Below, in pieces: positions 4,297 through 63,110 of a stretch of DNA of 64,000 bases. The DNA is taken from NCBI GenBank assembly GCA_021787535.1, contig JAJYLR010000003.1:56-64055 (forward strand), read 5' to 3'. Numbering within the stretch: the stretch's first letter is position 1; each line of letters starts with the position of its first letter. The stretch comes from a bacterium. GTDB lineage: Bacteria > Patescibacteriota > CPR2 > UBA1875 > JAJYID01. The notes under the pieces are model-generated. The model did not search any database and was not told the origin of the DNA. It worked only from the letters and a program-made list of their open reading frames with translations. The position numbers and the translations under genes are program-made.

Positions 4297-4417
4297 ATCT
4301 TGCAATTTCTAAATCCGAATTTCTAATTTCTAAACAAATTCAAATGATCAAAATCCAAAATAATCAAACAAAAATTCCGATTCAAACATTTCACCTTTAA
4401 CATTTAATATTAAAAAT

Positions 4418-7266: not shown

Positions 7267-8524
7267 CAAGAAATTTTCAATTTTCAATTTTCAATTTTCA
7301 ATGTCCCTGATTTTGCGGCCGCTTAGAAATAGGCAGCTTTTGCCAAGCCGCCAGGGATCAATCTTGGTTCTATTTATTATTGTTCTGTCTGTCATGACTA
7401 CGATCGTTCTGGCCGTTTCGGGGCTTGTTTTAAATAACCGGATTGGAGTTGAGCGGACTTATCAGAAAGACAAAGCTTTAAATATTGCCGAGGCGGGGAT
7501 ACAAAAAGCGCTGTGGGAACTAAAGGGTCATAACCCATCCTATACCGGAGAAACGGGTAATACTTACATTGCGGGCGGGGAATTTGATGTTACAGTCACT
7601 CAAATTGATGCGAACAACGATTACATTACATCAACAGCTTATGTTCCCTCGAAAGCCAATCCTAAATACAAAAAAGCGATCAAAGTTAAAATATCTGATA
7701 CGCCGGTTACTACAAATCCGGCCTTTAGCTACGCTATTCAGGCGGGAGCAGGAGGTATCGATGTGGGCGGATCGAGCGAGGTACATGGCAGTCTTTATTC
7801 TAATGGTGCAATCTCTGTATCAGGCGCATCAGCAACAGTAAATGATCCCGGAGATGCTTGGGCAGTCACAACTATTACCGATCCCAAAGGCGGAATCAAA
7901 GGCACTAAAACGCAAGGAGCCCAGCCGGTAGCTTTGCCGACTATTGACTTGAACCAATGGCGGTCTTTGGCCCAAGCTGGCGGGACCATTACCGGCGACT
8001 ATTCTCCGCCTGCGACCGGTAGTTACACCAATTTTGGACCAAAAGAAATTACGGGGAATTTTTCAATGTCCGGATCAAATCAAAAAATGAATCTAATGGG
8101 GCCTTTGTATATCCACGGCAACCTAAATATTAGCGGTGGCGAATGGAAACTTGATGATTCCTTCGGGTCCAATGGCACGATAGTTTTGGTCGACGGCCAA
8201 ATCAGTATTACCGGAGGCGACTTTCATGGCAATTCCAGCGGATCTTATATTTTATTTATTTCTACTAGTACCGCTAACACTAAAGACAGCGGTTCTGCAA
8301 TATATTATAGAGGCAATGCTAATGGTGAAAAGCTGGCTCTTTATGCATATAATGGAGCGATGACGTTGGCAGGTTCCGGCGAAATTATCGCAATGACCGG
8401 ACAAACCTTGTTTTTAAACGGCAGCGGAGAGATACACTATGACAGCGGCCTGAAGTCCGAACAGTTTGCCGGCGGCCCCGGCGGGACTTGGGTTGTGAAA
8501 GAATGGCAGGAGATATCGCCCTGA
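7259..8524 (+). CDS. PilX-like large minor pilin (PilX N-terminal domain)
   Basis: GTG start after AGGAGG. RQGSILVLFIIVLSVMTTIVLAVSGL resembles PilX_N. The C-terminal region is rich in G, S and T. Confidence 0.55.
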   Translation: MTSKKFSIFNFQFSMSLILRPLRNRQLLPSRQGSILVLFIIVLSVMTTIVLAVSGLVLNNRIGVERTYQKDKALNIAEAGIQKALWELKGHNPSYTGETGNTYIAGGEFDVTVTQIDANNDYITSTAYVPSKANPKYKKAIKVKISDTPVTTNPAFSYAIQAGAGGIDVGGSSEVHGSLYSNGAISVSGASATVNDPGDAWAVTTITDPKGGIKGTKTQGAQPVALPTIDLNQWRSLAQAGGTITGDYSPPATGSYTNFGPKEITGNFSMSGSNQKMNLMGPLYIHGNLNISGGEWKLDDSFGSNGTIVLVDGQISITGGDFHGNSSGSYILFISTSTANTKDSGSAIYYRGNANGEKLALYAYNGAMTLAGSGEIIAMTGQTLFLNGSGEIHYDSGLKSEQFAGGPGGTWVVKEWQEISP

Positions 8525-8733
8525 CGGGAATGACTAATTAACAATTTCTAATGTCTAATCAAATTCAAATGACCAAATTTCAAAAATTGACGTTTATAAA
8601 TTAGGTATTGTTAAGTATTGATTAGACATTAGAAATTAGGATTTAGAAATTACTCATATGAATTGCTTAAATACTTTGGTTTAAATATAATAAAGATAAT
8701 TATAAAAAGATTAGTTAAGTTACCGGAGGGTTT

Positions 8734-9786
8734 TTGCTTAAGCAAGATCTGATTTATAAAGAAAAAGATTGCCTGGGGCTTGATATCGGCGCCAGTTCGG
8801 TTAAAATCGTCCAGCTTAAAAAGAAAAAGTCGCTGACAAAGTTGATGGGCTACGAAAGCAAGGCGCTTCCGGAGAATATCATTATCGAAGGTGTGATTTC
8901 CGAGCCGGAAAAATTGGCTCAAATGATTAAAGGCATGATAAGCGAGACGAAGGAAGGCAAGTTTACTGCAAAAAAAGCCATTGCTTCAATACCAGATGCA
9001 AATGTTTTCACCAGAGTTTTGGAGATGCCGCCTCTTTCCGCTAAGGAACTGAAAGAAGCTCTCATGTGGGAAGCGGATCAGTCAATACCGATGGCTATGA
9101 CTGATCTTGTCATTGATTGGCAGGTCCTCGGCCCGTCTATTACCAAAAAAGGCATGAATGATATCCTGCTTGTTGGGGCGCCGCTTGCGATTGTCAACTC
9201 TTATGTCCAGCTCTTTGACAAACTAGGTCTCCAGCCGGAAGCGATTGAAACTAGTTTGGTCTCAGTTATTCGGGCGCTTGTGTCAAATAAGGAGCGCGAT
9301 GAAGTAATGCTAGTTGTCGATATTGGATCAAGGTCTACAAACTTAGGTTTTTATGATCATACTCTGCGGCTGGCCGACAGTTTGGATTTCGGCGGATTAA
9401 ACTTTACAGATGCGATCAGGGCCGGCGCTCAAGTTGACGAAAAAAAAGCTGAGGAAATGAAAATGAAAATTGGGCTGAAAGATAAAAAAGTCGCCGAAGC
9501 GCTTGATAGTATTCTTGCCAATTTGAAGAGTGAGATGAGCAAAGTTATTAAATATCACGATGAGAGAAATGAAACTAAGACTTCGAAAGTTATTCTTTGC
9601 GGAGGATCTTCGAACCTTATAGGTCTGACAGAATACTTGGCTGAGGCACTGAAAGTAGAGGTTAAGGTCGGAAATCCATGGGTTAATATCGACACTTATC
9701 CTTTAAAGCCCGTGCCGAAAGCCGAAGCTCCTGCATATGCCAATGCTATCGGGCTTTCGCTGAGGGCTATGGAGGCAATAGTATGA
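8734..9786 (+). CDS. pilM: Type IV pilus assembly protein PilM (actin-like ATPase)
   Basis: LGLDIGASSVKIVQL N-terminal actin-fold motif. TTG start after GGAGGG. It is followed by pilN and pilO. Confidence 0.8.
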   Translation: MLKQDLIYKEKDCLGLDIGASSVKIVQLKKKKSLTKLMGYESKALPENIIIEGVISEPEKLAQMIKGMISETKEGKFTAKKAIASIPDANVFTRVLEMPPLSAKELKEALMWEADQSIPMAMTDLVIDWQVLGPSITKKGMNDILLVGAPLAIVNSYVQLFDKLGLQPEAIETSLVSVIRALVSNKERDEVMLVVDIGSRSTNLGFYDHTLRLADSLDFGGLNFTDAIRAGAQVDEKKAEEMKMKIGLKDKKVAEALDSILANLKSEMSKVIKYHDERNETKTSKVILCGGSSNLIGLTEYLAEALKVEVKVGNPWVNIDTYPLKPVPKAEAPAYANAIGLSLRAMEAIV

Positions 9787-17122: not shown

Positions 17123-17170
17123 AATCACATCTTGGTGTAGTATGCAGTATACCGTATTGAGTATTGAGGG

Positions 17171-17251
17171 GATTCTGGACAAGCCAGAATGACAAAGGGA
17201 AAGGGATTCCTCCGCTTGCCCCGTCGGACGGGGTTGTCGGTCGGAATGACA
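17171..17251. repeat. Two repeat units (GATTCTGGACAAGCCAGAATGACA + GGATTCCTCCGC...GTCGGTCGGAATGACA) between CIRCE and the hrcA start
   Basis: Hairpin ATTCTGG-acaag-CCAGAAT followed by GACA. The second unit closely resembles the 3' half of the murD insert. Confidence 0.65.
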
Positions 17252-26785: not shown

Positions 26786-26801
26786 GAATTGTACTTGAAA
26801 A

Positions 26802-26825
26802 GATTCTGGACAAGCCAGAATGACG
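26802..26825. repeat. Repeat unit GATTCTGGACAAGCCAGAATGAC
   Basis: Identical to the unit at 17171-17195. Confidence 0.55.
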
Positions 26826-26934
26826 CTGAAATAACTATGATATTTTAGCAGATTTAAGGCGAAGGGTCAATCAAATCAAGGGTTTTTTTCTGTCATTTGA
26901 CAAGCACTTTCAAAAAAGCCATAATACTTATATT

Positions 26935-27953: not shown

Positions 27954-28172
27954 GTATTCCCTCCAGTCTTAGAGTATAAACAATTTTATTATAGGTAGAA
28001 GGGATGATCAGTGTAAAGGGGATTTTATAAATGACTAATTAAGAATTTCTAATGTCTAATCAATAACCAATGAGCTAATTTTAAATTTTGCTAACAAGGA
28101 CTGTCCTTGAAAGACAGTCCTGAAGAACAATCATTTTGTACTTTACACTTCTTCTATTACAATAAATACATT

Positions 28173-28784
28173 ATGTTTGTTGAATCTTTAGCTCATTTTA
28201 TAATGTCAGCTATCTCATCTTTCGGATATCTGGGAGTTTTTTTGGCGATGGCGGTAGAATCAGCATGTATACCTTTGCCATCTGAAATCATCATGCCTTT
28301 TTCGGGATTTTTAGCTTTCAAAGGTGAGTTTAATCTGGTTTTAGTTGGGGTTGTCGGGGCTTTCGGTAACCTGGCCGGATCCTTAATCGCCTATTACATC
28401 GGCAAATGGGGTGGACTGCCTCTAGTGGAAAAATATGGCAAATACATTTTAATCTCGCATCATGACATCAAAAAGGCCCACAAATGGTTTGATCGCCACG
28501 GCAAAAGTACTGTATTTTTTACCCGTCTCATCCCGGTTGTCAGAACTTTCATTTCATTTCCGGCCGGCGTCAGCGAGATGAATGTAGTGACATTTTCGAT
28601 TTACACATTTCTCGGCGCGCTGCCCTGGTCTCTCTTGCTTGCTTATGTCGGATATAAACTCGGGGCAAACTGGAATACCCTGGGAGCATATTTTCATAAG
28701 GCAGATTTGGCAGTTGGTATAGTGATTATTATCGCGATTGCGTGGTACATTAGAAGACACGTTAAGCATCTTAAGAAAGATTAA
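28173..28784 (+). CDS. DedA/SNARE-associated family membrane protein
   Basis: GYLGVFLAMAVESACIPLPSEII...G.L..VVRTFISFPAG. The track ORF starts at 28107. Confidence 0.7.
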   Translation: MFVESLAHFIMSAISSFGYLGVFLAMAVESACIPLPSEIIMPFSGFLAFKGEFNLVLVGVVGAFGNLAGSLIAYYIGKWGGLPLVEKYGKYILISHHDIKKAHKWFDRHGKSTVFFTRLIPVVRTFISFPAGVSEMNVVTFSIYTFLGALPWSLLLAYVGYKLGANWNTLGAYFHKADLAVGIVIIIAIAWYIRRHVKHLKKD

Positions 28785-28851
28785 GATTTAATTTTCAATT
28801 TACAATTTGAAATTTTCAGTCGATTATTAAATAATAAATTTTCTAGTAAAG

Positions 28852-28876
28852 GATTCTGGTCAAGCCAGAATGACAG
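28852..28876. repeat. Repeat unit GATTCTGGTCAAGCCAGAATGACA
   Basis: One substitution relative to the 17171 copy. About 60 nt upstream of the M16 peptidase gene. Confidence 0.55.
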
Positions 28877-28934
28877 AATAAAAATTCTAAATTTCAGATT
28901 CCCATTCAAAATACTAAATACGAGATACCAATCA

Positions 28935-30194: not shown

Positions 30195-30239
30195 AGTAAA
30201 TCTTTAATTTGAGATTCGAAATTTATAATTTAAAGAAAA

Positions 30240-30264
30240 GATTCTGGTCAAGCCAGAATGACAA
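30240..30264. repeat. Repeat unit GATTCTGGTCAAGCCAGAATGACA overlapping the annotated ndk start
   Basis: The ATG of the GAATGACA motif is in frame with ndk. Confidence 0.55.
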
Positions 30265-30278
30265 AAAAAGGACAACTT

Positions 30279-30779: not shown

Positions 30780-30893
30780 AATGATCAATAACCAATTGCC
30801 AATATCCAATCAATGTTAAATAACTGAGTTTTAAAATTTCAAATTGGGATTTGATTAGTCATTGGTAATTGAAAATTAGAAATTTACAAACCT

Positions 30894-41148: not shown

Positions 41149-41481
41149 TCAGCCCAGCATTCCACCGAAGGTTATGCCACGACTGTGTGCTATATTCAGG
41201 ATACGATTGCAGAAGCGGTGCCAATTCTCCGAATGATCAGGAGTTCTGAGCAGATCTGAGTACGCGCTGTCGGCGAAGAACCGGTAAGCAAGCTCGAGGA
41301 ACTTGATGGGCTCTGTCTGCGCGAAGATCTCGAGCGAGTCGATTGGTATCACGGTGTTGCTGCGCTTGAAGACGTATCCGATGATACCTCTTGGCCACTC
41401 CGTGATTCTCAAAATGATCGTGCCATTACTCTCTTCGACCACTTGCTTGGTACAACGCGCTTTGTTTTTCTTCTTCTTCAC
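41149..41481 (-). CDS. Hypothetical protein
   Basis: 110-aa ORF in a GC-rich minus-strand block. Confidence 0.4.
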   Translation of the reverse strand: MKKKKNKARCTKQVVEESNGTIILRITEWPRGIIGYVFKRSNTVIPIDSLEIFAQTEPIKFLELAYRFFADSAYSDLLRTPDHSENWHRFCNRILNIAHSRGITFGGMLG

Positions 41482-41548
41482 TTCGTTTCACCTTCTTGTT
41501 ACTAGTCGGAAGTCGGGAGTTGTTACGGCTTCAACGGACAGAAAAGTA

Positions 41549-41860
41549 TCACTGCCAGTCAGGGATGATTGAGCGGATCAAAGTCAGCATATCTTCCCGT
41601 TCTTGATCGGCGATCTCGGCGATAGCTTTGTAAGCAGCTTCCTCCATGTGCTGGGACAGCTCAAGTTCAGAGTTCTTGGAGATCAGTTTGAGATGCGGCA
41701 TTCCGTTCACCATTCTGTCTCCGATGCAGGCTCTAATCACCGCATCAAGGTGTTTTTTCTGGGTGAACCATTCACCGATCTGAGCGTACTGCTCCCGTGA
41801 AATCTGGCCGGGCTTGAGCTCTACCTGTGTTTTAGTACCTTGTTTAGCCATTTGCTTCAC
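41549..41860 (-). CDS. Hypothetical protein
   Basis: 103-aa ORF, same block. Confidence 0.4.
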   Translation of the reverse strand: MKQMAKQGTKTQVELKPGQISREQYAQIGEWFTQKKHLDAVIRACIGDRMVNGMPHLKLISKNSELELSQHMEEAAYKAIAEIADQEREDMLTLIRSIIPDWQ

Positions 41861-42611: not shown

Positions 42612-43115
42612 ATGATTATTATTATGAATACGCTTGTTATTTTATCTGCCAAATATCTCTACATTGTCATCATTTTGGCGGCGATAGGTTTGACATTTTA
42701 TAAAACCAAGATGGAAAAGCGCATAGAAATGATTGTCACAGCTATTTTTGCAGCTATTATTGTTTTGGCTCTTATTTGGTTATCCAGACACTTAATCTAT
42801 TCAGCCAGGCCTTTTGTCGTCGGTCACTTCACACCCCTCATTCCGCACGTGGCTGACAACGGCTTCCCGTCAGACCACACCGCCATTTCCATGGGCGCGG
42901 CTCTCGTAATTTATCTATTCAACAAATATGCCGGCATCATCCTGGCCGTTTTGGCTCTCTGGGTCGGCATCGCCAGGGTTCTGGCCGGTGTCCATCATCC
43001 GATCGATATTTTTGGCAGTATTATCATTGCTCTCATTGCCATCATGGCGGCAAAACTAATTTTAAAGCGCTGTCCAAAGCTCCTATCCTGCCCAATGAAG
43101 AAGTTGGGGAAGTGA
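42612..43115 (+). CDS. PAP2-superfamily phosphatase (undecaprenyl-diphosphatase-like)
   Basis: PSDHTAISMGAAL and GVHHPIDIFG motifs. Confidence 0.7.
   Translation: MIIIMNTLVILSAKYLYIVIILAAIGLTFYKTKMEKRIEMIVTAIFAAIIVLALIWLSRHLIYSARPFVVGHFTPLIPHVADNGFPSDHTAISMGAALVIYLFNKYAGIILAVLALWVGIARVLAGVHHPIDIFGSIIIALIAIMAAKLILKRCPKLLSCPMKKLGK
43027..43112 (+). repeat. Direct repeat A: the functional 3' end of the PAP2 gene
   Basis: About 85% identical to 44564-44650. Confidence 0.65.
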
Positions 43116-43128
43116 GTTTAGAGGCATT

Positions 43129-43731
43129 ATGACGAACTCACAGTATAAAATAGATCCAGCGAAAGCCTTTGGGCATTTAGTGTATGAATATAGATGCTTA
43201 GTGCGTGCGGAATTTGCCTACAAGCAGGCTGATAAGCATAAATGCATCAATGATTTCATTCCTGAGATAGGAACTGTTGCACGCAATGCAGTTCTACAAA
43301 AAGCCCGCTCATTAATTAAGTTTTATATGCCATTAAGTCGGGACACTGATATTACTTCAGAAAAGTATTTTGGAATCTCTTTGAGTGTTATTGATAATAA
43401 ATTATACAAAAAGCTAGAAAACATTTATCGATCAATCGAAGTCCACGATTTGCATTTAACGGTGTGGCGTGATCCAAGCTATCGTAATAATAAATCTGAT
43501 AAGATGCAACGGAGAGAATGGAATATAGAACAAGACAAAATAGTGGAGAATCTCATTAAAGCACTAGAGGTGATATCAAAAACATCTGGATTGAATGATA
43601 AGTGGCAAAGAGTTTTCCGAGAGCTTCATGATTGTTGTGCCAATGTATTGAAGGGCGATAGGGAATGGCCTGAAGAATTCTCAAGTCCTGAAAAAATTGA
43701 AAAGCATCTCAAAAGTATAGGTATACCTTAG
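43129..43731 (+). CDS. Hypothetical protein (cargo of the PAP2-3'-end insertion)
   Basis: 200-aa ORF. RBS GAGGCATTATG. Confidence 0.45.
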   Translation: MTNSQYKIDPAKAFGHLVYEYRCLVRAEFAYKQADKHKCINDFIPEIGTVARNAVLQKARSLIKFYMPLSRDTDITSEKYFGISLSVIDNKLYKKLENIYRSIEVHDLHLTVWRDPSYRNNKSDKMQRREWNIEQDKIVENLIKALEVISKTSGLNDKWQRVFRELHDCCANVLKGDREWPEEFSSPEKIEKHLKSIGIP

Positions 43732-43801
43732 CTTTATAATTTATACCATCCATGATTGAAGGAGCCCTTGGCTTGTCAGTAGTTTCTCAGCAAGATGCCG
43801 G

Positions 43802-44563
43802 ATGATAACCTTTATGTATAGACGAAGACTGGCAAGACAAAGAGCATCCAGGAAACGAATCAAAAGCTTCTTTGTTGTTGTCATTGTCATCGGCACTACG
43901 CTTGCAATAATAAAAGGTGTGAGTTTAATCCCGGATGGCCTTGTTCATGCTAAAAAATCGGATAAAAGGACGCTTGGGTCAGTTTGCCTTGACCCCGGCC
44001 ACGGCGGCAGCGACACTGGCGCGAACAACCAAGATCTCTATGAACGCGACCTCAATCTGCGGGTGGCTGAGCGTGTAGAGAGTATCCTTGAAAATGATGG
44101 CTACAAGGTCTATATGACTAGAACGACCAACGATCCGTATCTGACAAACAACGACCGGGTCACTTTTTGTAATGGCAAAAATACCGACATTTTAGTAGCG
44201 ATTCATCAAAACTACTTTACCGACAGCGCCACTGATTACACGACAGCGCTTTATTATAATCAGAATTCACGAGGGCTGGCGGCCAGCCTCGCAAATGCTG
44301 AAGCGGCTCGCCTGGGCACTACAAATAATGGTATAGCGAGTTTTGATGATGGAGAACTCATGAGAGCCAAGATGCCGGCAGCACTTGTAGAAGGCTTTTT
44401 TATAAGCAGTGATCGTGAATATTCACTCATAAGTGCGGCCGGCTCGACACGGCTTGCAGACGAAGCGTCGGGAATCGTCCAGGGAGTTGAAAACTATTTT
44501 AAAAATCCGAATCAGAAGCCGACCCAAGACACAGTGCTTGACCAGGCCGACTCACCGGAATAG
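43802..44563 (+). CDS. N-acetylmuramoyl-L-alanine amidase (Amidase_3 / CwlD-like)
   Basis: VCLDPGHGGSDTGA...DILVAIHQNYF...EGFFIS with an N-terminal TM anchor. Confidence 0.75.
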   Translation: MITFMYRRRLARQRASRKRIKSFFVVVIVIGTTLAIIKGVSLIPDGLVHAKKSDKRTLGSVCLDPGHGGSDTGANNQDLYERDLNLRVAERVESILENDGYKVYMTRTTNDPYLTNNDRVTFCNGKNTDILVAIHQNYFTDSATDYTTALYYNQNSRGLAASLANAEAARLGTTNNGIASFDDGELMRAKMPAALVEGFFISSDREYSLISAAGSTRLADEASGIVQGVENYFKNPNQKPTQDTVLDQADSPE

Positions 44564-44650
44564 TTGCTCTCATTGCCGTCATGGCGGCAAAACTAATTTT
44601 AAAGCGCTACCCCAAACTCATATCCTGCCCAATGAAAAAGATAGGGAAAG
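44564..44650 (+). repeat. Direct repeat B: a non-coding remnant copy of the PAP2 3' end
   Basis: TTGCTCTCATTGCCGTCATGGCGGCAAAACTAATTTTAAAGCGCT...TATCCTGCCCAATGAA. Confidence 0.65.
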
Positions 44651-44670
44651 CTTAGCTAAAGTTTAGGGAA

Positions 44671-44916
44671 TTATTTCTTAATATATTTTTTGCCGCGGAC
44701 GCCCTCGACATATATCTTATGCCAGGCAAGAGGCCCAAGGACAATGCCCAAAACTACGCCTTGAGCTATCATGATGCCATAAAGCACTGCAGTCAGATTG
44801 AGCGCGCCATAGAGCTCAAGAGAAACGAACTCAATAATTCCGCCAAGCGTTACCATAAAAAGGATTCCGGTTATCACCCAGAGCACAATGTAAATTATTT
44901 CTTTAGTATTTTTCAT
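44671..44916 (-). CDS. Small membrane protein
   Basis: 81 aa with two TM segments. Confidence 0.3.
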   Translation of the reverse strand: MKNTKEIIYIVLWVITGILFMVTLGGIIEFVSLELYGALNLTAVLYGIMIAQGVVLGIVLGPLAWHKIYVEGVRGKKYIKK

Positions 44917-45538: not shown

Positions 45539-46045
45539 TTAAAACTCTTCAAAAATTCTTTTGCCATTTCCGTCTTTTCCCAGATTCATCAAAACTTTCT
45601 TGCCTTCATTGACCCAGGAGGCGACAACATCGGCAAGGAATATGTCGTGATCGCCGGCATCAAAAATACCTGTCACTCTGCATTCATGATTTATGGTCGC
45701 GTCAGTGAGCAGTGGAGCATTTACGTATTTGCCTTTCGTTGTTTTAACTCGCGTTTCTTTAAATTTATCCATATCTCTTCCTGAAGTAGTGCCGAAAACG
45801 AGAGCTGTATTTTCCAAATCTTTATTGGGTATGGCAACCACAAACTCTTTGTTTTCTTTGAGCGGATTATAGGTATATCTCTCCTTGCCGATCGAAACCA
45901 TGATTCTCGGCGGGTCAAAAGATACTTGGGAAAACCAGCTGGCCGTCATGCCTGTCGGCTTGCCATCCCGGTCCGTGCAAATAACGAGCGTGCACAAAAG
46001 CGGATGGAGGATATTCAGGCCCTCGGTTGGAGTGATTTCTTTCAT
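45539..46045 (-). CDS. Flavin reductase-like domain protein (FMN-binding split barrel)
   Basis: LLCTLVICTDRDGKPTGMTASWFSQVSFDPPRIMVSIG. Confidence 0.65.
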   Translation of the reverse strand: MKEITPTEGLNILHPLLCTLVICTDRDGKPTGMTASWFSQVSFDPPRIMVSIGKERYTYNPLKENKEFVVAIPNKDLENTALVFGTTSGRDMDKFKETRVKTTKGKYVNAPLLTDATINHECRVTGIFDAGDHDIFLADVVASWVNEGKKVLMNLGKDGNGKRIFEEF

Positions 46046-46208
46046 AGTTTAAATTATAACATAGACGTAAATAATGCCTATTCAAAGACATTATTGATTA
46101 TTATTTTTTGACAAGCCGAAGCAGAGGTAATGCCAATGCTTTACAAATACCTTAGATTATGATACTATATAGTCTGTCTTGGTGAAAAATTGACAAGGAG
46201 GTTTAGGA

Positions 46209-46429
46209 TGTGTGGCGGTAATTGTCGGCACAAACCGCCGCAAGCAGTTTGCATGGCTTGCCTTGCGGCAAACGATGGATGCACGGCACGTTGCCGTGAC
46301 GCATTCGTCTACGACCCTGAGCTTACTGATGAACAAATCGTTGGCATGCTGAAAGCCGACTATACCATCGGCCAGGGGCGCTTCGAGTTAGGAGTCAAGA
46401 TCCCCGAACGGATACAGGCACTCCTGTAG
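46209..46429 (+). CDS. Small Cys-rich protein (hypothetical)
   Basis: MCGGNCRHKPPQAVCMACLAANDGCTARC. ATG at 46209 is preceded by AGGAGG. Terminator at 46472-46508. Confidence 0.35.
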
Positions 46430-46471
46430 CAAGCAGCGTTTTTGCTAGAGATTATTTCACTAAGAACAAAA

Positions 46472-46508
46472 ATGGCTCCGTAGTTGTACGGAGCCATTTC
46501 TCTTTTTG
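46472..46508 (+). terminator. Intrinsic terminator
   Basis: AATGGCTCCGTAGTTGTACGGAGCCATTT followed by a T-run. Confidence 0.55.
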
Positions 46509-46637
46509 TCTGTTTATCTAAACTTTGTAATTTTTGACGCAGCGGGGTATATAGAGGAACCAAAAAGAAAACCCGCCCTCGGAAGAACCGAGATTCACTT
46601 TCGTGAAAACGGGTTCTCCCTTGAGCGGGCGGCTGTG

Positions 46638-47207
46638 CTAGTCCACTTTTAGCGGACCTCGGCACTGGTTATGGCACTGGCCGTATGGTATTAGACAAAT
46701 GTCGCATAGGAGTGCAATTGCCTTTTCGAGAGTGTCTTCGAGGTTCTCGCCGATCGGAACGTTCGGGAGGGATTTAAGACGGTGTCGAATGTAATGATCA
46801 CCATCAAATCCTTCCTCAAAACCAACGACGATATTGGTGCCGTCGATCTCATGATGTGCAATCCATTCGCCGAACTCAATACGAGTTGTTCGGGCAAACG
46901 GCCTATCACAGTAGTGCGTCTCCTCTTTGGCGAAAAAGAAGATGATTACACCGCGCATTGCGGCTCTTCGCAGGTAATGAGACTCCCAGTCGGCCTGACT
47001 AATGTAATCCTTTTCGCTGTAGTCATTAGCTTGATCGAGATTTCTCCTAGGAGATGCAACATTGAGGATGGGAATCTTTCTTTGTAGATACGAGATTGCC
47101 TCATCTTGCCACCTGGCGGAACCTTTGATAGGACCAGCCAGAAAGGCAAGTGCACCCTCTACTTCCACCATCTCCGGCGGAAAAATGACTTTGCTCACCG
47201 AATTCAT
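46638..47207 (-). CDS. Hypothetical protein (GC-rich)
   Basis: 189-aa ORF. A terminator hairpin lies downstream at 46560-46635. Confidence 0.45.
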   Translation of the reverse strand: MNSVSKVIFPPEMVEVEGALAFLAGPIKGSARWQDEAISYLQRKIPILNVASPRRNLDQANDYSEKDYISQADWESHYLRRAAMRGVIIFFFAKEETHYCDRPFARTTRIEFGEWIAHHEIDGTNIVVGFEEGFDGDHYIRHRLKSLPNVPIGENLEDTLEKAIALLCDICLIPYGQCHNQCRGPLKVD

Positions 47208-47351
47208 GTTTACCTCCTAGGTTCTGAATCGAGAAAGGCCATACCGTTTCTGGTATGACCCTCCTGTTTGAATTCCGAAATCATAATAACACAAAAAGGA
47301 TAAAAAAAGAAGAGCGAGACTATGTCTCGCTCCCGTTCTTTTGTGGCAGGA

Positions 47352-47828
47352 TTAGCAGATTTTCGGGTATGACCGCCAAGCCGGTTTGAGTTGGCTAAGG
47401 TCAGCGAGATCAGGATCAGGGCAAGGACAAGGAGGCATTTCAATTTCGAGATCTTTGAAGAGGGTAGGAAATCCTCCTCGCATGGCGCAGGGGAGACCCC
47501 GGAATTCTTCAGTATTGCAGATGTGGAGACTTTCACACTTTGTCGGATCTTCGTCGAACTCGCACATGCCGATCATATTACAGCGCATACATGCGGGCTG
47601 ATATTCTGTTCTGTCCTTTAAGAACGCTTGTATATTTGCGTTGCAAATATCACAGCTGCCGTCGGCATGGCTGTAACTTTGGAGGATATGCGGAGGAATA
47701 CGCCCATCTTGAACATCCACGAGGGTATTAAGCGGGACATGAGGTTCCACATCCGTAGCCAGTGGCTCCAAAGTTCTGTGTAAAAGCTTATGGCCGTATT
47801 GCTTCATTATGCTTTTTGGATCTGCCAT
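47352..47828 (-). CDS. Cys-rich hypothetical protein
   Basis: 158 aa with 14 Cys including CDIC, CMRC and CPCPDPD. Confidence 0.4.
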   Translation of the reverse strand: MADPKSIMKQYGHKLLHRTLEPLATDVEPHVPLNTLVDVQDGRIPPHILQSYSHADGSCDICNANIQAFLKDRTEYQPACMRCNMIGMCEFDEDPTKCESLHICNTEEFRGLPCAMRGGFPTLFKDLEIEMPPCPCPDPDLADLSQLKPAWRSYPKIC

Positions 47829-47829
47829 A

Positions 47830-48054
47830 TCACCGCTCCTTTGTGGGTTGTAATAGTGAATGTACGCTCTTTGTTTGTGTGAGGCCCCCGATAAACCAGA
47901 ACATCATCAAAACAAAAATAGCAAGGAGTACAAAACCGGGCTCTGACCATGCCACACAAAGATCTCTGATCATTGCGACAGTTCCTATAAGTCCAATCAA
48001 GACCATAAAGGAACAAAAACTTACCCAGACTTTTTGTTCAACTGTTAGGTTCAT
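47830..48054 (-). CDS. Small membrane protein
   Basis: 74 aa with two TM segments. Confidence 0.3.
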   Translation of the reverse strand: MNLTVEQKVWVSFCSFMVLIGLIGTVAMIRDLCVAWSEPGFVLLAIFVLMMFWFIGGLTQTKSVHSLLQPTKER

Positions 48055-48204: not shown

Positions 48205-48281
48205 TGGCGACCCGGACCGGACTCGAACCGGCGACCTCCTGCGTGACAGGCAGGCGCTCTAACCAACTGAGCTACCGGGCC
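48205..48281 (-). tRNA. tRNA-Asp (anticodon GTC)
   Basis: Reverse complement is GGCCCGGTAGCTCAGTTGGTTAGAGCGCCTGCCTGTCACGCAGGAGGTCGCCGGTTCGAGTCCGGTCCGGGTCGCCA. Confidence 0.8.
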
Positions 48282-51621: not shown

Positions 51622-51714
51622 TTAAGCTTAACTCGTGCTAAAATATGCAGGTTATTATTTAGAATTTTGGATTTGATTGTAAATGATTCATTGGAAATTG
51701 AAAATTAATATATA

Positions 51715-56716: not shown

Positions 56717-56796
56717 TGTCATTCTGGCGACGATAGGAGACCAGAATCTAAAGGTTACCACACAAGATACAGATTCTGGACAAGCCAGAATGACAC
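56717..56796. repeat. Composite repeat (TGTCATTCTGGCGACGATAGGAGACCAGAATC ... GATTCTGGACAAGCCAGAATGACA)
   Basis: Left-end and right-end units separated by about 25 nt. About 60 nt upstream of mntH. Confidence 0.6.
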
Positions 56797-56852
56797 CCAA
56801 AATAGTTTTCAACAGTTTCAGGAATGAGGTTTTAAATTGTTAAGGAAATGTA

Positions 56853-63039: not shown

Positions 63040-63047
63040 ATTCATTG

Positions 63048-63110
63048 TGTCATTCTGGCTTGTCCAGAATCTCTATTTTGTCATTCCACGTCTGATTCGG
63101 GATCTAAAAT
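63048..63110. repeat. Two left-end repeat units (TGTCATTCTGGCTTGTCCAGAATC; TGTCATTCCACGTCTGATTCGGGATC)
   Basis: Lies downstream of the MBL hydrolase gene. Confidence 0.5.

What the first reader, a model, noticed from the sequence alone, without database searches (positions are those of the whole stretch)
43027..44650. Approximately 1.45 kb two-gene insertion (unknown protein + Amidase_3 cell-wall hydrolase) into the 3' end of a PAP2 phosphatase gene, flanked by roughly 86-bp direct repeats
The final roughly 86 bp of the PAP2 ORF (43027-43112) recur at 44564-44650 with about 85% identity. The second copy is out of frame with the upstream amidase and is evidently a relic. Between them lie ORF 43129-43731 (no recognisable motifs) and a membrane-anchored N-acetylmuramoyl-L-alanine amidase (DPGHGGSDTGA). 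The pattern is of an element that inserted into a gene 3' end while bringing a replacement C-terminus, as integrative elements do. No integrase remains. The cargo could be a lysin/immunity pair, a toxin/immunity pair or a sporulation-like CwlD pair.
Basis: seen in the sequence. Interest (0 to 1): 0.65.

Follow-up and report, generated by a model that had tools for sequence, protein, structure and literature searches.

The report
Old recombination scar beside a cell-wall amidase
The duplicated end of the PAP2 phosphatase gene is real, but it is an old recombination scar shared with a sister lineage and attached to an ordinary cell-wall amidase, and the unknown 200-aa gene arrived separately, so this is not a recent two-gene mobile element.

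Summary
Observation confirmed. The last 28 codons of the PAP2 gene (43027-43111) recur at 44564-44648, with 76/85 bases identical and no indels. The second copy starts at the base after the amidase stop codon. Three independent assemblies show the same structure.

Interpretation only partly supported.
- The closest relative (GCA_027342015.1) has the same amidase|PAP2-tail junction but no ORF200. Its tail copy has decayed to about 50% identity.
- The amidase-plus-tail module is therefore ancestral to both lineages.
- The amidase looks native: normal GC3, a full-length C-terminus, and orthologues at other loci in related Patescibacteria.
- ORF200 replaced a pseudogene remnant later. It has low GC3, and its small unannotated family sits elsewhere in variable, mobile or defence-like islands, never beside an amidase.
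- I found no integrase within about 15 kb on either side, and no viral, phage or plasmid link.

The window's second copy is too well preserved for an ancestral scar (pS 0.28 against 0.55-0.74 between species; pN/pS 0.25). This points to later homologous recombination: gene conversion, or re-insertion into another allele. How the first duplication arose is unresolved (Campbell-type crossover or a tandem-duplication join).

Verdict: a known kind of scar, like icd/icdC at e14, in a recombination-prone locus. Low to moderate interest.

The parts
42612..43115 (+). PAP2-family lipid phosphatase gene, undecaprenyl-diphosphatase-like, 167 aa. Relatives start at the MNTL motif, so the start may be 42624.
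   Evidence: Pfam PF01569, 1.4e-14. NCBIfam undecaprenyl-diphosphate phosphatase, 1e-21, below cut-off. Orthologues at 79-83% aa identity in L001, L003 and L028.
43027..43111 (+). Repeat copy R1: the functional last 28 codons of PAP2 (end of the last hydrophobic helix plus a basic tail).
43129..43731 (+). ORF200: a 200-aa all-alpha cytoplasmic protein of unknown function. It is a later, separate acquisition that replaced the psi-249 remnant seen in L001.
   Evidence: Absent from L001/L002, with no tblastn remnant. GC 0.365 and GC3 0.328, the fourth lowest of 62 genes. 11 homologues at 44-51% identity and 75 cluster representatives at E<=1e-3. AF2 pLDDT 86.7, all helical. No fold match in PDB or BFVD. 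An AGAGG ribosome-binding site lies 5 nt before the ATG.
43770..43813 (+). Amidase leader conserved with L001. This is the left edge of the module shared by the window and L001 (43770-44648).
   Evidence: BLAST aligns window 43770-44639 to L001 8696-9565 at 74.6%. The alignment shows the conserved start is the ATG at 43814; the upstream ATG at 43802 is not in frame in L001.
43814..44563 (+). Membrane-anchored N-acetylmuramoyl-L-alanine amidase (Amidase_3), 249 aa. The mechanical ORF starts at 43802.
   Evidence: Pfam PF01520, 4.9e-34. 80% aa identity to the L001 orthologue P0133. pS 0.74 and pN 0.11 against L001. The C-terminus ..TQDTVLDQADSPE* matches the homologues' ends.
44564..44648 (+). 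Repeat copy R2: a displaced, untranslated copy of the PAP2 tail, immediately after the amidase stop. The PAP2 frame is still open and ends at TAG 44653-44655.
   Evidence: R1-R2 pS 0.28, pN 0.07, ratio 0.25, Fisher p = 0.01. The homologous but decayed relic in L001 is at 9489-9573.
44573..44590 (+). A 7-bp hairpin inside R2 followed by a short T run. It is terminator-like and could act as an amidase terminator, but support is weak.
   Evidence: Consensus scan. Fold gives -14 kcal/mol with z = -1.3 only.
44671..44916 (-). Convergent 81-aa membrane-protein gene, the conserved right-hand neighbour of the variable spot.
   Evidence: 79% aa identity to L001 and 64% to L003 and L028.

Best explanation
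The locus is the product of at least three separate events, not one two-gene insertion.

(1) Original duplication. In the common ancestor of this lineage and its sister (GCA_027342015.1), a rearrangement placed the lineage's ordinary membrane-anchored peptidoglycan amidase downstream of the PAP2 gene. It left a duplicate of the last 85 nt or so of PAP2 directly after the amidase stop codon. The proximal copy keeps PAP2 intact and the distal copy is a non-coding scar. The event was either a Campbell-type single crossover of a circular fragment carrying a PAP2 tail, or the join point of a tandem duplication followed by partial deletion. The present data cannot separate these.

(2) Renewal of the scar. 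In the window lineage the scar was later renewed by homologous recombination. Either R1 converted it (gene conversion), or the module was re-inserted into a diverged PAP2 allele whose own functional tail became R2. This is why it is 89% identical, indel-free and still in frame, while the sister's scar is about 50% identical.

(3) Arrival of ORF200. ORF200 is a low-GC accessory gene from a small uncharacterised family found in variable, mobile or defence-like islands. It was acquired horizontally and replaced the pseudogene remnant between PAP2 and the amidase. In addition, the phosphoesterase gene found after the scar in the sister lineage is absent here.

Functional result (inferred): a same-strand PAP2-ORF200-amidase cluster of two cell-envelope enzymes with a passenger gene between them. 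Shown: the anatomy, the shared junction, the absence of ORF200 in the sister, and the substitution patterns. Inferred: the order of events and the recombination mechanisms.
For: - Repeat and junction.
- Sister locus L001/L002 is syntenic (Na_Ca_ex ... PAP2, Amidase_3, 82 aa(-), YbjQ). The window-L001 alignment runs through the amidase into the relic (43770-44639 to 8696-9565).
- The L001 relic is homologous but decayed: 47/85 identical to R2 (z = 6.5), 43/85 to its own tail (z = 5.4), pN 0.38-0.49 and pS 0.57-0.74.
- The L001 spacer is a remnant of L003's 249-aa(-) gene: aa 223-250 at E = 1e-10, aa 28-44 at E = 0.006, plus its upstream region. It holds no ORF200 remnant.
- L003/4/5 and L028 have other genes after PAP2 and no amidase. 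None of 49 species-representative PAP2 loci has a downstream amidase or a tail duplicate.
- Amidase orthologues examined (L006, L007, L009, L011, L012) are not next to PAP2 and have no relic.
- R1-R2 pS is 0.28, against 0.55-0.61 for the PAP2 body and 0.74 for the amidase between species. So the R1/R2 pair is younger than the shared junction.
- pN/pS is 0.25 (p = 0.01). R2 is as close to functional tails of other species (80-85%) as R1 is.
- Mosaic identity among co-occurring lineages: 98.4% for L001-L028 over 318 nt against 77% in PAP2; 93.9% for L003-L028 against 81%. All three lineages occur in sample SRR13170411.
- ORF200 composition and genomic contexts.
- No integrase or transposase domain in the genes scanned from 28.9 to 55.3 kb.
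Against: - Only three relative lineages are available, so polarity and event order rest on few sequences.
- R1 and R2 each carry four derived changes, and these are spatially segregated: R1's lie 5' of 43077 and R2's lie 3' of 43078. This could mark a reciprocal crossover (p about 0.03), which would fit a more recent Campbell-type integration of the whole ORF200-amidase block in the window lineage.
- The possible extension of the repeat into the PAP2 3' flank also fits a window-specific duplication that includes both genes.
- Neutral decay on the R2 branch alone cannot be rejected (about 6 changes).
- The origin of the first duplication is not resolved.
- The function of ORF200 is unknown.
Confidence: 0.6

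Rival explanations
1. A single, fairly recent integrative element carrying ORF200 plus the amidase inserted by site-specific recombination into the PAP2 3' end and supplied a replacement C-terminus. The integrase has since been lost.
For: The geometry is that of e14/phage 21 in icd (PMC6379469). R2 looks like a recently functional tail (pN/pS 0.25). The derived changes switch sides at 43076-43079, as at a crossover point. The repeat may include the native 3' flank. ORF200 is compositionally foreign.
Against: The sister lineage has the amidase and the tail relic at the same nucleotide junction without ORF200, and its relic is ancient. The amidase has native composition and diverges from the L001 copy like a vertically inherited gene (pS 0.74, pN 0.11). 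No integrase, excisionase or other element genes lie within about 15 kb on either side. Scans of viral, phage and plasmid collections found nothing.
Confidence: 0.07
2. Recurrent site-specific insertion. An amidase cassette with an att core at the start of the PAP2 tail integrated independently in the two lineages, long ago in L001 and recently in the window. This would explain the identical junction with relics of very different age.
For: The junction is identical while the relic identities are 51% and 89%. A 15/16-nt core, AATTTT(A/G)AAGCGCTAC, survives even in the decayed relic.
Against: In L001 the DNA between the functional tail and the amidase is a remnant of the gene that natively abuts PAP2 in L003. 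So that stretch is host DNA, not element DNA. The amidase leader is shared and diverges like the flanks. The core motif occurs nowhere else in the window or in viral contigs. No recombinase is present.
Confidence: 0.08
3. R2 is preserved by selection because it is functional. It could be translated as an alternative C-terminal membrane anchor of the amidase after a -1 frameshift, or it could act as the amidase transcription terminator.
For: The PAP2 frame of R2 is open and lies -1 relative to the amidase. The same frame is open for 57 codons in L001. R2 holds a 7-bp hairpin plus a T run, flagged as terminator-like.
Against: There is no slippery heptamer before the stop (CACCGGAATAG). The L001 relic evolves neutrally (pN/pS about 0.7), so it is not under coding selection. 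The hairpin energy is unremarkable (z = -1.3) and the hairpin is absent from the L001 relic.
Confidence: 0.05
4. Assembly or binning artefact: a chimeric join of two PAP2-containing strains.
For: Several related lineages co-occur in the same samples.
Against: Three independent assemblies from two samples give the identical sequence across both repeat copies. The sister lineage has the same architecture.
Confidence: 0.01

Closest known systems
e14 / phage 21 integration into the 3' end of E. coli icd, leaving the icdC (icd') pseudo-copy
   Same: Inserted DNA is flanked by a direct duplication of the target gene's 3' end. The proximal copy keeps the ORF intact with a few conservative or synonymous differences, and the distal copy is a C-terminal fragment pseudogene. 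For icd the duplicated piece is 163 bp (PMC6379469 and PMC13626634).
   Different: No integrase, excisionase or other element genes are present. The inserted DNA here is 1.45 kb, against about 15 kb for e14. One of the two genes between the copies is a native, vertically inherited housekeeping-type amidase shared with a sister lineage. The scar is ancient in that sister. There is no evidence of excision.
Campbell-type (single-crossover) homologous integration, and tandem-duplication join points followed by partial deletion
   Same: Both produce a direct duplication of a homologous segment flanking the heterologous DNA, with a novel join. Here the join is the amidase stop codon abutting PAP2 codon 139. 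Neither needs a dedicated recombinase. Later gene conversion between the repeats is expected (general knowledge of RecA-dependent recombination).
   Different: These are generic mechanisms, not a defined family. Neither has been demonstrated here. The donor circle or the intermediate duplication is hypothetical.
Amidase_3 cell-wall amidases (AmiA/B/C, CwlD type)
   Same: The Pfam Amidase_3 domain matches (4.9e-34). Motifs resembling the zinc-ligand and catalytic positions (DPGH, YERDL, AIHQN, LVEGF) are visible in the sequence. An N-terminal membrane anchor points to an extracytoplasmic enzyme.
   Different: It falls below every NCBIfam equivalog cut-off: CwlD 88/221, AmiA 59/400, AmiC 51/700. 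It has no AMIN, LysM or SH3 targeting domains. PHROG endolysin hits reflect the shared domain only.
PAP2 undecaprenyl-diphosphate phosphatases (BcrC/PgpB/YbjG type)
   Same: The PAP2 domain and NCBIfam PRK11837 (1e-21) match. The sequence shows motifs that look like the conserved PAP2 phosphatase motifs (SARPF, PSDH, ARVLAGVHHPID). JGI names homologues undecaprenyl-diphosphatase.
   Different: It is below the equivalog cut-off (78/229 bits). The substrate is not tested.

Membership tests
Integrative element targeting a protein-gene 3' end (e14/phage 21-icd type) | Direct repeats made of the duplicated 3' end of the target gene flank the inserted DNA, and the target ORF is kept intact. | tested here: met
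   85 nt, 89% identical. The PAP2 ORF is complete through R1.
Integrative element targeting a protein-gene 3' end (e14/phage 21-icd type) | A site-specific recombinase (integrase) gene lies inside or next to the element. | tested here: not met
   No integrase or transposase domain in the two genes between the repeats, or in the neighbours scanned from 28.9 to 55.3 kb. Several small neighbours have no Pfam hit.
Integrative element targeting a protein-gene 3' end (e14/phage 21-icd type) | The whole block between the repeats is present or absent as a unit among close relatives (an empty site exists). | tested here: not met
   L001/L002 carry the amidase and relic without ORF200. L003 and L028 lack the amidase but carry other genes there. 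No clean empty site was found. An exact look-up of hypothetical empty-site proteins was negative.
Integrative element targeting a protein-gene 3' end (e14/phage 21-icd type) | The cargo is compositionally or phylogenetically foreign. | tested here: inconclusive
   ORF200 is foreign-looking (GC3 0.328 against a mean of 0.458). The amidase is not (GC3 0.469; pS 0.74 and pN 0.11 against L001, like the flanking genes).
Two-gene toxin/immunity or lysin/immunity pair | The two genes co-occur in different genomes. | tested here: not met
   Among the loci examined, ORF200 homologues sit next to an XRE-type HTH, an SF1 helicase-nuclease, a radical SAM gene or unknown genes, never an amidase. No amidase orthologue examined is next to an ORF200 homologue.
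CwlD (sporulation-specific amidase) | Score above the TIGR02883 equivalog cut-off. | tested here: not met
   88.2 bits against a cut-off of 221.55.
Amidase_3 (PF01520) peptidoglycan amidases | Domain match above the gathering threshold, with motifs resembling the metal-ligand and catalytic positions. | tested here: met
   118 bits against a cut-off of 27. The DPGH, E (YERD), H (AIHQN) and E (LVEGF) motifs are visible in the sequence. Enzyme activity is not testable here.
PAP2 (PF01569) lipid phosphate phosphatases | Domain match above the gathering threshold, with motifs resembling the conserved PAP2 phosphatase motifs. | tested here: met
   54.4 bits against a cut-off of 27.2. The motifs are visible in the sequence. 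Assignment as undecaprenyl-diphosphatase is only below cut-off.
Known anti-phage defence proteins (PADLOC) or phage proteins (PHROGs), tested for ORF200 | A significant profile match. | tested here: not met
   The best PADLOC hit is HEC-01B at E = 0.02, and there is no PHROG hit. No Pfam hit for 46 family members beyond single noise hits. No PDB or BFVD fold match.

The most novel reading that the evidence does not exclude
The amidase module, bracketed by two copies of the PAP2 tail, could behave as an integrase-free cassette that depends on RecA. Recombination between the repeats would loop out a circle (tail-ORF200-amidase). After uptake by a related, naturally competent Patescibacterium, that circle could re-integrate by a single crossover into any similar PAP2 tail, displacing the recipient's own tail. 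This would explain three things: the fresh, selection-shaped R2; the switch of derived changes at 43076-43079; and the missing phosphoesterase.
Probability: 0.12. Interest if true: 0.55.

Novelty: new member of a known kind. Interest (0 to 1): 0.25.

Why it matters
The main value is cautionary and descriptive.
- A gene block flanked by direct repeats of a gene's 3' end looks like a mobile element. Comparison with three related lineages shows instead an old scar around a native gene, renewed by homologous recombination, with an unrelated later gene gain inside it.
- The locus documents how a cell-envelope region in small Patescibacteria genomes is reshuffled among co-occurring lineages. Identity is mosaic, from 77% to 98% within a few kb.
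- It flags a small, unannotated, confidently folding all-alpha protein family (ORF200). The family recurs at the 3' side of unrelated genes in variable islands and is a candidate for later functional work.

Nothing here overturns current understanding.

Tried and rejected
- Amidase truncated at the junction: rejected. Its C-terminus matches full-length homologues.
- ORF200 lost from L001 rather than gained here: rejected. L001 has no tblastn remnant, and its spacer is a remnant of another gene.
- PAP2-amidase adjacency or tail duplication as a general feature of PAP2 loci: rejected. 0 of 49 loci show it.
- Other copies of the conserved tail core in the window or in viral contigs: none.
- ORF200 or amidase relatives in viral contigs, phage genomes or plasmids: none.
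- ORF200 as HEPN-like (Rx4-6H): rejected. The Arg before H106 is not conserved.
- ORF200 as DinB-like: one member at E = 0.012 only, with no fold support.
- PDB sequence hit to HIV gp41 (E = 1e-5): judged spurious. It is a helical-hairpin similarity to repeated designed constructs, with no fold match.
- Conserved terminal sequences flanking ORF200 homologues, as a cassette would have: none.
- Frameshift fusion of the amidase to R2, and R2 as a terminator: weak or unsupported.
- Exact look-up of hypothetical empty-site PAP2 proteins carrying the R2 tail: not in the collection.
- The metagenome scan with the amidase returned only distant relatives at 28-32% identity.
Full report
**1.

The window has an 85-nt ungapped direct repeat, 43027-43111 and 44564-44648, with 76/85 bases identical and a start-to-start spacing of 1537 nt. 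BLAST gives E about 5e-27. It is the longest high-identity direct repeat in the 64 kb.

- Copy R1 is codons 139-167 of a 167-aa PAP2-family phosphatase (42612-43115; Pfam PAP2 1.4e-14). NCBIfam gives undecaprenyl-diphosphate phosphatase at 1e-21, below its cut-off.
- Copy R2 starts at the base after the stop codon (44561-44563) of an Amidase_3 protein (Pfam 4.9e-34).
- R2 lies in the -1 frame relative to the amidase and has no start codon ahead of its hydrophobic part. It nevertheless keeps the PAP2 frame open, with no indel.
- The similarity may continue about 16 nt past the stop codons with an indel (p = 0.0075 by shuffling).
- Two Logan assemblies from different samples are 100% identical to the window across the structure (L077, L078). 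It is not an assembly artefact.

**2. The genes**

- The PAP2 protein shows motifs that look like the conserved PAP2 phosphatase motifs. The duplicated part is the end of the last hydrophobic helix plus a basic tail.
- The amidase starts at the conserved ATG at 43814, giving 249 aa. It has a basic N-terminus followed by a hydrophobic anchor, and motifs resembling the Amidase_3 metal-ligand and catalytic positions. It is below the equivalog cut-offs for CwlD, AmiA and AmiC.
- ORF200 (43129-43731) has no Pfam, NCBIfam or PHROG match. Its only PADLOC match is not significant (HEC-01B, E = 0.02).
- The surroundings are chromosomal and look like Patescibacteria. The best PAP2 homologues are from Patescibacteria MAGs. 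Neighbouring genes include ribosomal protein L25, SAICAR synthetase, an M16 peptidase and tRNAs. No integrase or transposase domain was found from 28.9 to 55.3 kb.

**3. What relatives show**

Three related lineages were recovered.

- L001/L002 (GCA_027342015.1; PAP2 83% aa) is syntenic. Its order is PAP2, a 247-nt spacer, Amidase_3 (80% aa), a phosphoesterase, an 82-aa(-) gene and YbjQ(-).
  - The window-L001 alignment runs from the amidase leader through the amidase and into the sequence after its stop codon (43770-44639 to 8696-9565).
  - After the identical junction CACCGGAATAG|T, L001 carries a decayed PAP2-tail copy. In register it is 47/85 identical to R2 (z = 6.5) and 43/85 to L001's own functional tail (z = 5.4). 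Its pN is 0.38-0.49 and pS 0.57-0.74, which is a neutral pattern.
  - L001 has no ORF200 and no remnant of it. Its spacer is an internally deleted remnant of the 249-aa minus-strand gene that directly follows PAP2 in L003 (aa 223-250 at E = 1e-10, aa 28-44 at E = 0.006, plus its upstream region).
- L003/L004/L005 (GCA_021796415.1; PAP2 79%) have PAP2, then 249 aa(-), 161 aa(+) and 79 aa(-).
- L028 (PAP2 81%) has PAP2, then 161 aa(+) and a 100-aa(-) gene. Neither has an amidase or a relic there.
- None of 49 species-representative PAP2 loci has a downstream amidase or a tail duplicate.
- The amidase orthologues examined at 54-71% identity lie at other loci, without PAP2 or a relic. The amidase C-terminus here is full length.

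**4.

- The amidase with its trailing PAP2-tail fragment is a module shared by two lineages at the same nucleotide junction, so it has a single older origin.
- The amidase is native in composition (GC3 0.469 against a window mean of 0.458). It diverges from the L001 copy like a vertically inherited gene (pS 0.74, pN 0.11).
- ORF200 is a later replacement of the psi-249 remnant in the window lineage. Its GC is 0.365 and its GC3 0.328, the fourth lowest of 62 genes. In other genomes its homologues match host GC.
- The block between the repeats is therefore not one insertion. The pair is not a conserved two-gene system: none of the ORF200 and amidase loci examined shows the two families adjacent anywhere else.

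**5. The age paradox**

If the duplication predates the window-L001 split, R2 should be as decayed as the L001 relic. It is not.

- R1-R2 pS is 0.28 and pN 0.07 (ratio 0.25, Fisher p = 0.01). Between species, pS is 0.55-0.61 for the PAP2 body and 0.74 for the amidase.
- R2 is as similar to the functional tails of L028 and L003 (85% and 80%) as R1 is (84% and 81%).
- The R1/R2 pair was therefore homogenised after the split. This happened either by gene conversion between the repeats, or by recombination that brought together tails of two diverged functional alleles.
- Polarised with three outgroups, R1 carries four derived changes, all 5' of 43077. R2 carries four, all 3' of 43078 and all changes to A. 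Such segregation has p of about 0.03. It hints at a crossover point but is not decisive. Neutral decay on the R2 branch alone cannot be rejected.
- Recombination is plausible at this locus. Identity among the lineages is strongly mosaic: L001-L028 is 98.4% over 318 nt against 77% in PAP2, L003-L028 is 93.9% against 81%, and the psi-249 end in L001 is 88.5% identical to L003 against 76%. The window, L001 and L003 types co-occur in one sample.

**6. Origin of the first duplication (inferred, unresolved)**

Two routes give the observed join (amidase stop abutting PAP2 codon 139) without a dedicated recombinase:

- a Campbell-type single crossover of a circular fragment carrying a PAP2 tail and the amidase;
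- a tandem duplication of tail-to-amidase followed by partial deletion.

A site-specific element is disfavoured for three reasons. No recombinase is present. In L001 the DNA between the functional tail and the amidase is native PAP2-flanking DNA. The tail core, ORF200 and the amidase have no counterparts in viral contigs, phages or plasmids.

**7. ORF200**

- The family is small: 11 proteins at 44-51% identity in 5.8 billion clusters, and 75 representatives at E<=1e-3 among 1.84 billion.
- Members are about 200 aa and all-alpha. The AF2 model has pLDDT 86.7 and pTM 0.83. There is no fold match in PDB or BFVD.
- Invariant or near-invariant residues include F14, H16, R22, R60, H106, H109, T111, R114, D115, R119 and W131.
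- Homologues sit a few bases downstream of unrelated genes: an XRE-type HTH, a 1289-aa SF1 helicase fused to an MTES_1575 nuclease, and a radical SAM gene. These lie in islands with T5orf172, PLDc_2, IS1595, Replic_Relax and DUF4238 genes.
- My best guess, from context only, is a passenger accessory gene of mobile or defence-type islands, possibly a His/Arg-based enzyme. This is not demonstrated.

**8. Comparison with known systems**

The geometry matches e14/phage 21 in icd, where integration leaves a 163-bp icd' (icdC) pseudo-copy and the element supplies the new 3' end (PMC6379469, PMC13626634). Membership of that class fails on the integrase, on presence or absence of the block as a unit, and on foreignness of the amidase. 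The locus works like a 3'-end duplication scar, but it is not an integrative element.

**9. Verdict**

The locus is an ordinary recombination scar in a variable spot downstream of a conserved PAP2 gene. It has two mildly interesting features: the scar was renewed in one lineage, and an uncharacterised passenger gene sits inside it. Interest is 0.25. The most novel reading still open is an integrase-free, repeat-mediated cassette exchanged among co-occurring Patescibacteria, at a probability of about 0.12.

Noticed in passing
window 17167-17200, 26798-26831, 28848-28881, 30236-30269, 56768-56801 (+); 63041-63081 (inverted): A roughly 34-nt intergenic palindromic element, GATTCTGG(A/T)CAAGCCAGAATGACA, occurs in six copies. 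It is a REP-like or terminator-like hairpin family. A second variant, GGATTCCCGC..GCGGGAATGACA, lies at about 18054, 21629, 23360 and 59187.
   Followed up: no
window 4304-4364, 7272-7314, 8529-8651, 28030-28090, 28776-28839, 30780-30889, 51657-51708: AT-rich repeated motifs (AATTTCTAAT..., AATTTTCAATTTTCA) recur in intergenic regions in both orientations. They may be promoter or UP-like elements.
   Followed up: no
L001 11992-12309 vs L028 3871-4188; L003 9332-10124 vs L028 2624-3416: Segments are 98.4% and 93.9% identical between lineages whose PAP2 genes are only 77-81% identical. This indicates recent recombination among co-occurring Patescibacteria, or less likely chimeric bins.
   Followed up: partly
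L001 8494-8693: An internally deleted pseudogene remnant of the 249-aa minus-strand gene that follows PAP2 in L003 (8506-9255). Its 3' end is 88.5% identical to L003, higher than the neighbouring PAP2 gene.
   Followed up: yes
L001 9628-11322: A phosphoesterase (PF04185; PC-PLC or acid-phosphatase-like, NCBIfam 4.5e-50) lies between the relic and the 82-aa gene in the sister lineage. It is absent from the whole window.
   Followed up: partly
L017-L021 (ORF200 homologue at e.g. L017 6001-6606); L013-L016 (6001-6597): ORF200 homologues sit 8-16 nt downstream of unrelated genes: a 1289-aa SF1 helicase fused to an MTES_1575 nuclease, an XRE-type HTH, and a radical SAM gene. DUF4238, T5orf172, PLDc_2, IS1595 and Replic_Relax genes are nearby. 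This looks like a recurrent passenger position in variable islands.
   Followed up: partly
window 41149-41860 and 45539-48054: Some genes have no counterpart at this locus in the three relatives. These are two small unknown genes upstream of PAP2, and a flavin reductase, a nucleoside 2-deoxyribosyltransferase-like gene and unknown genes between the 60-aa gene and tRNA-Asp (48205-48281). This suggests a further variable segment next to a tRNA gene.
   Followed up: no
window 44573-44590: R2 carries a better hairpin (7 bp, TTGCCGT-CATG-GCGGCAA) than R1 (5 bp) because of the G/A difference at 43041/44578. It is terminator-like by consensus but not energetically unusual.
   Followed up: yes
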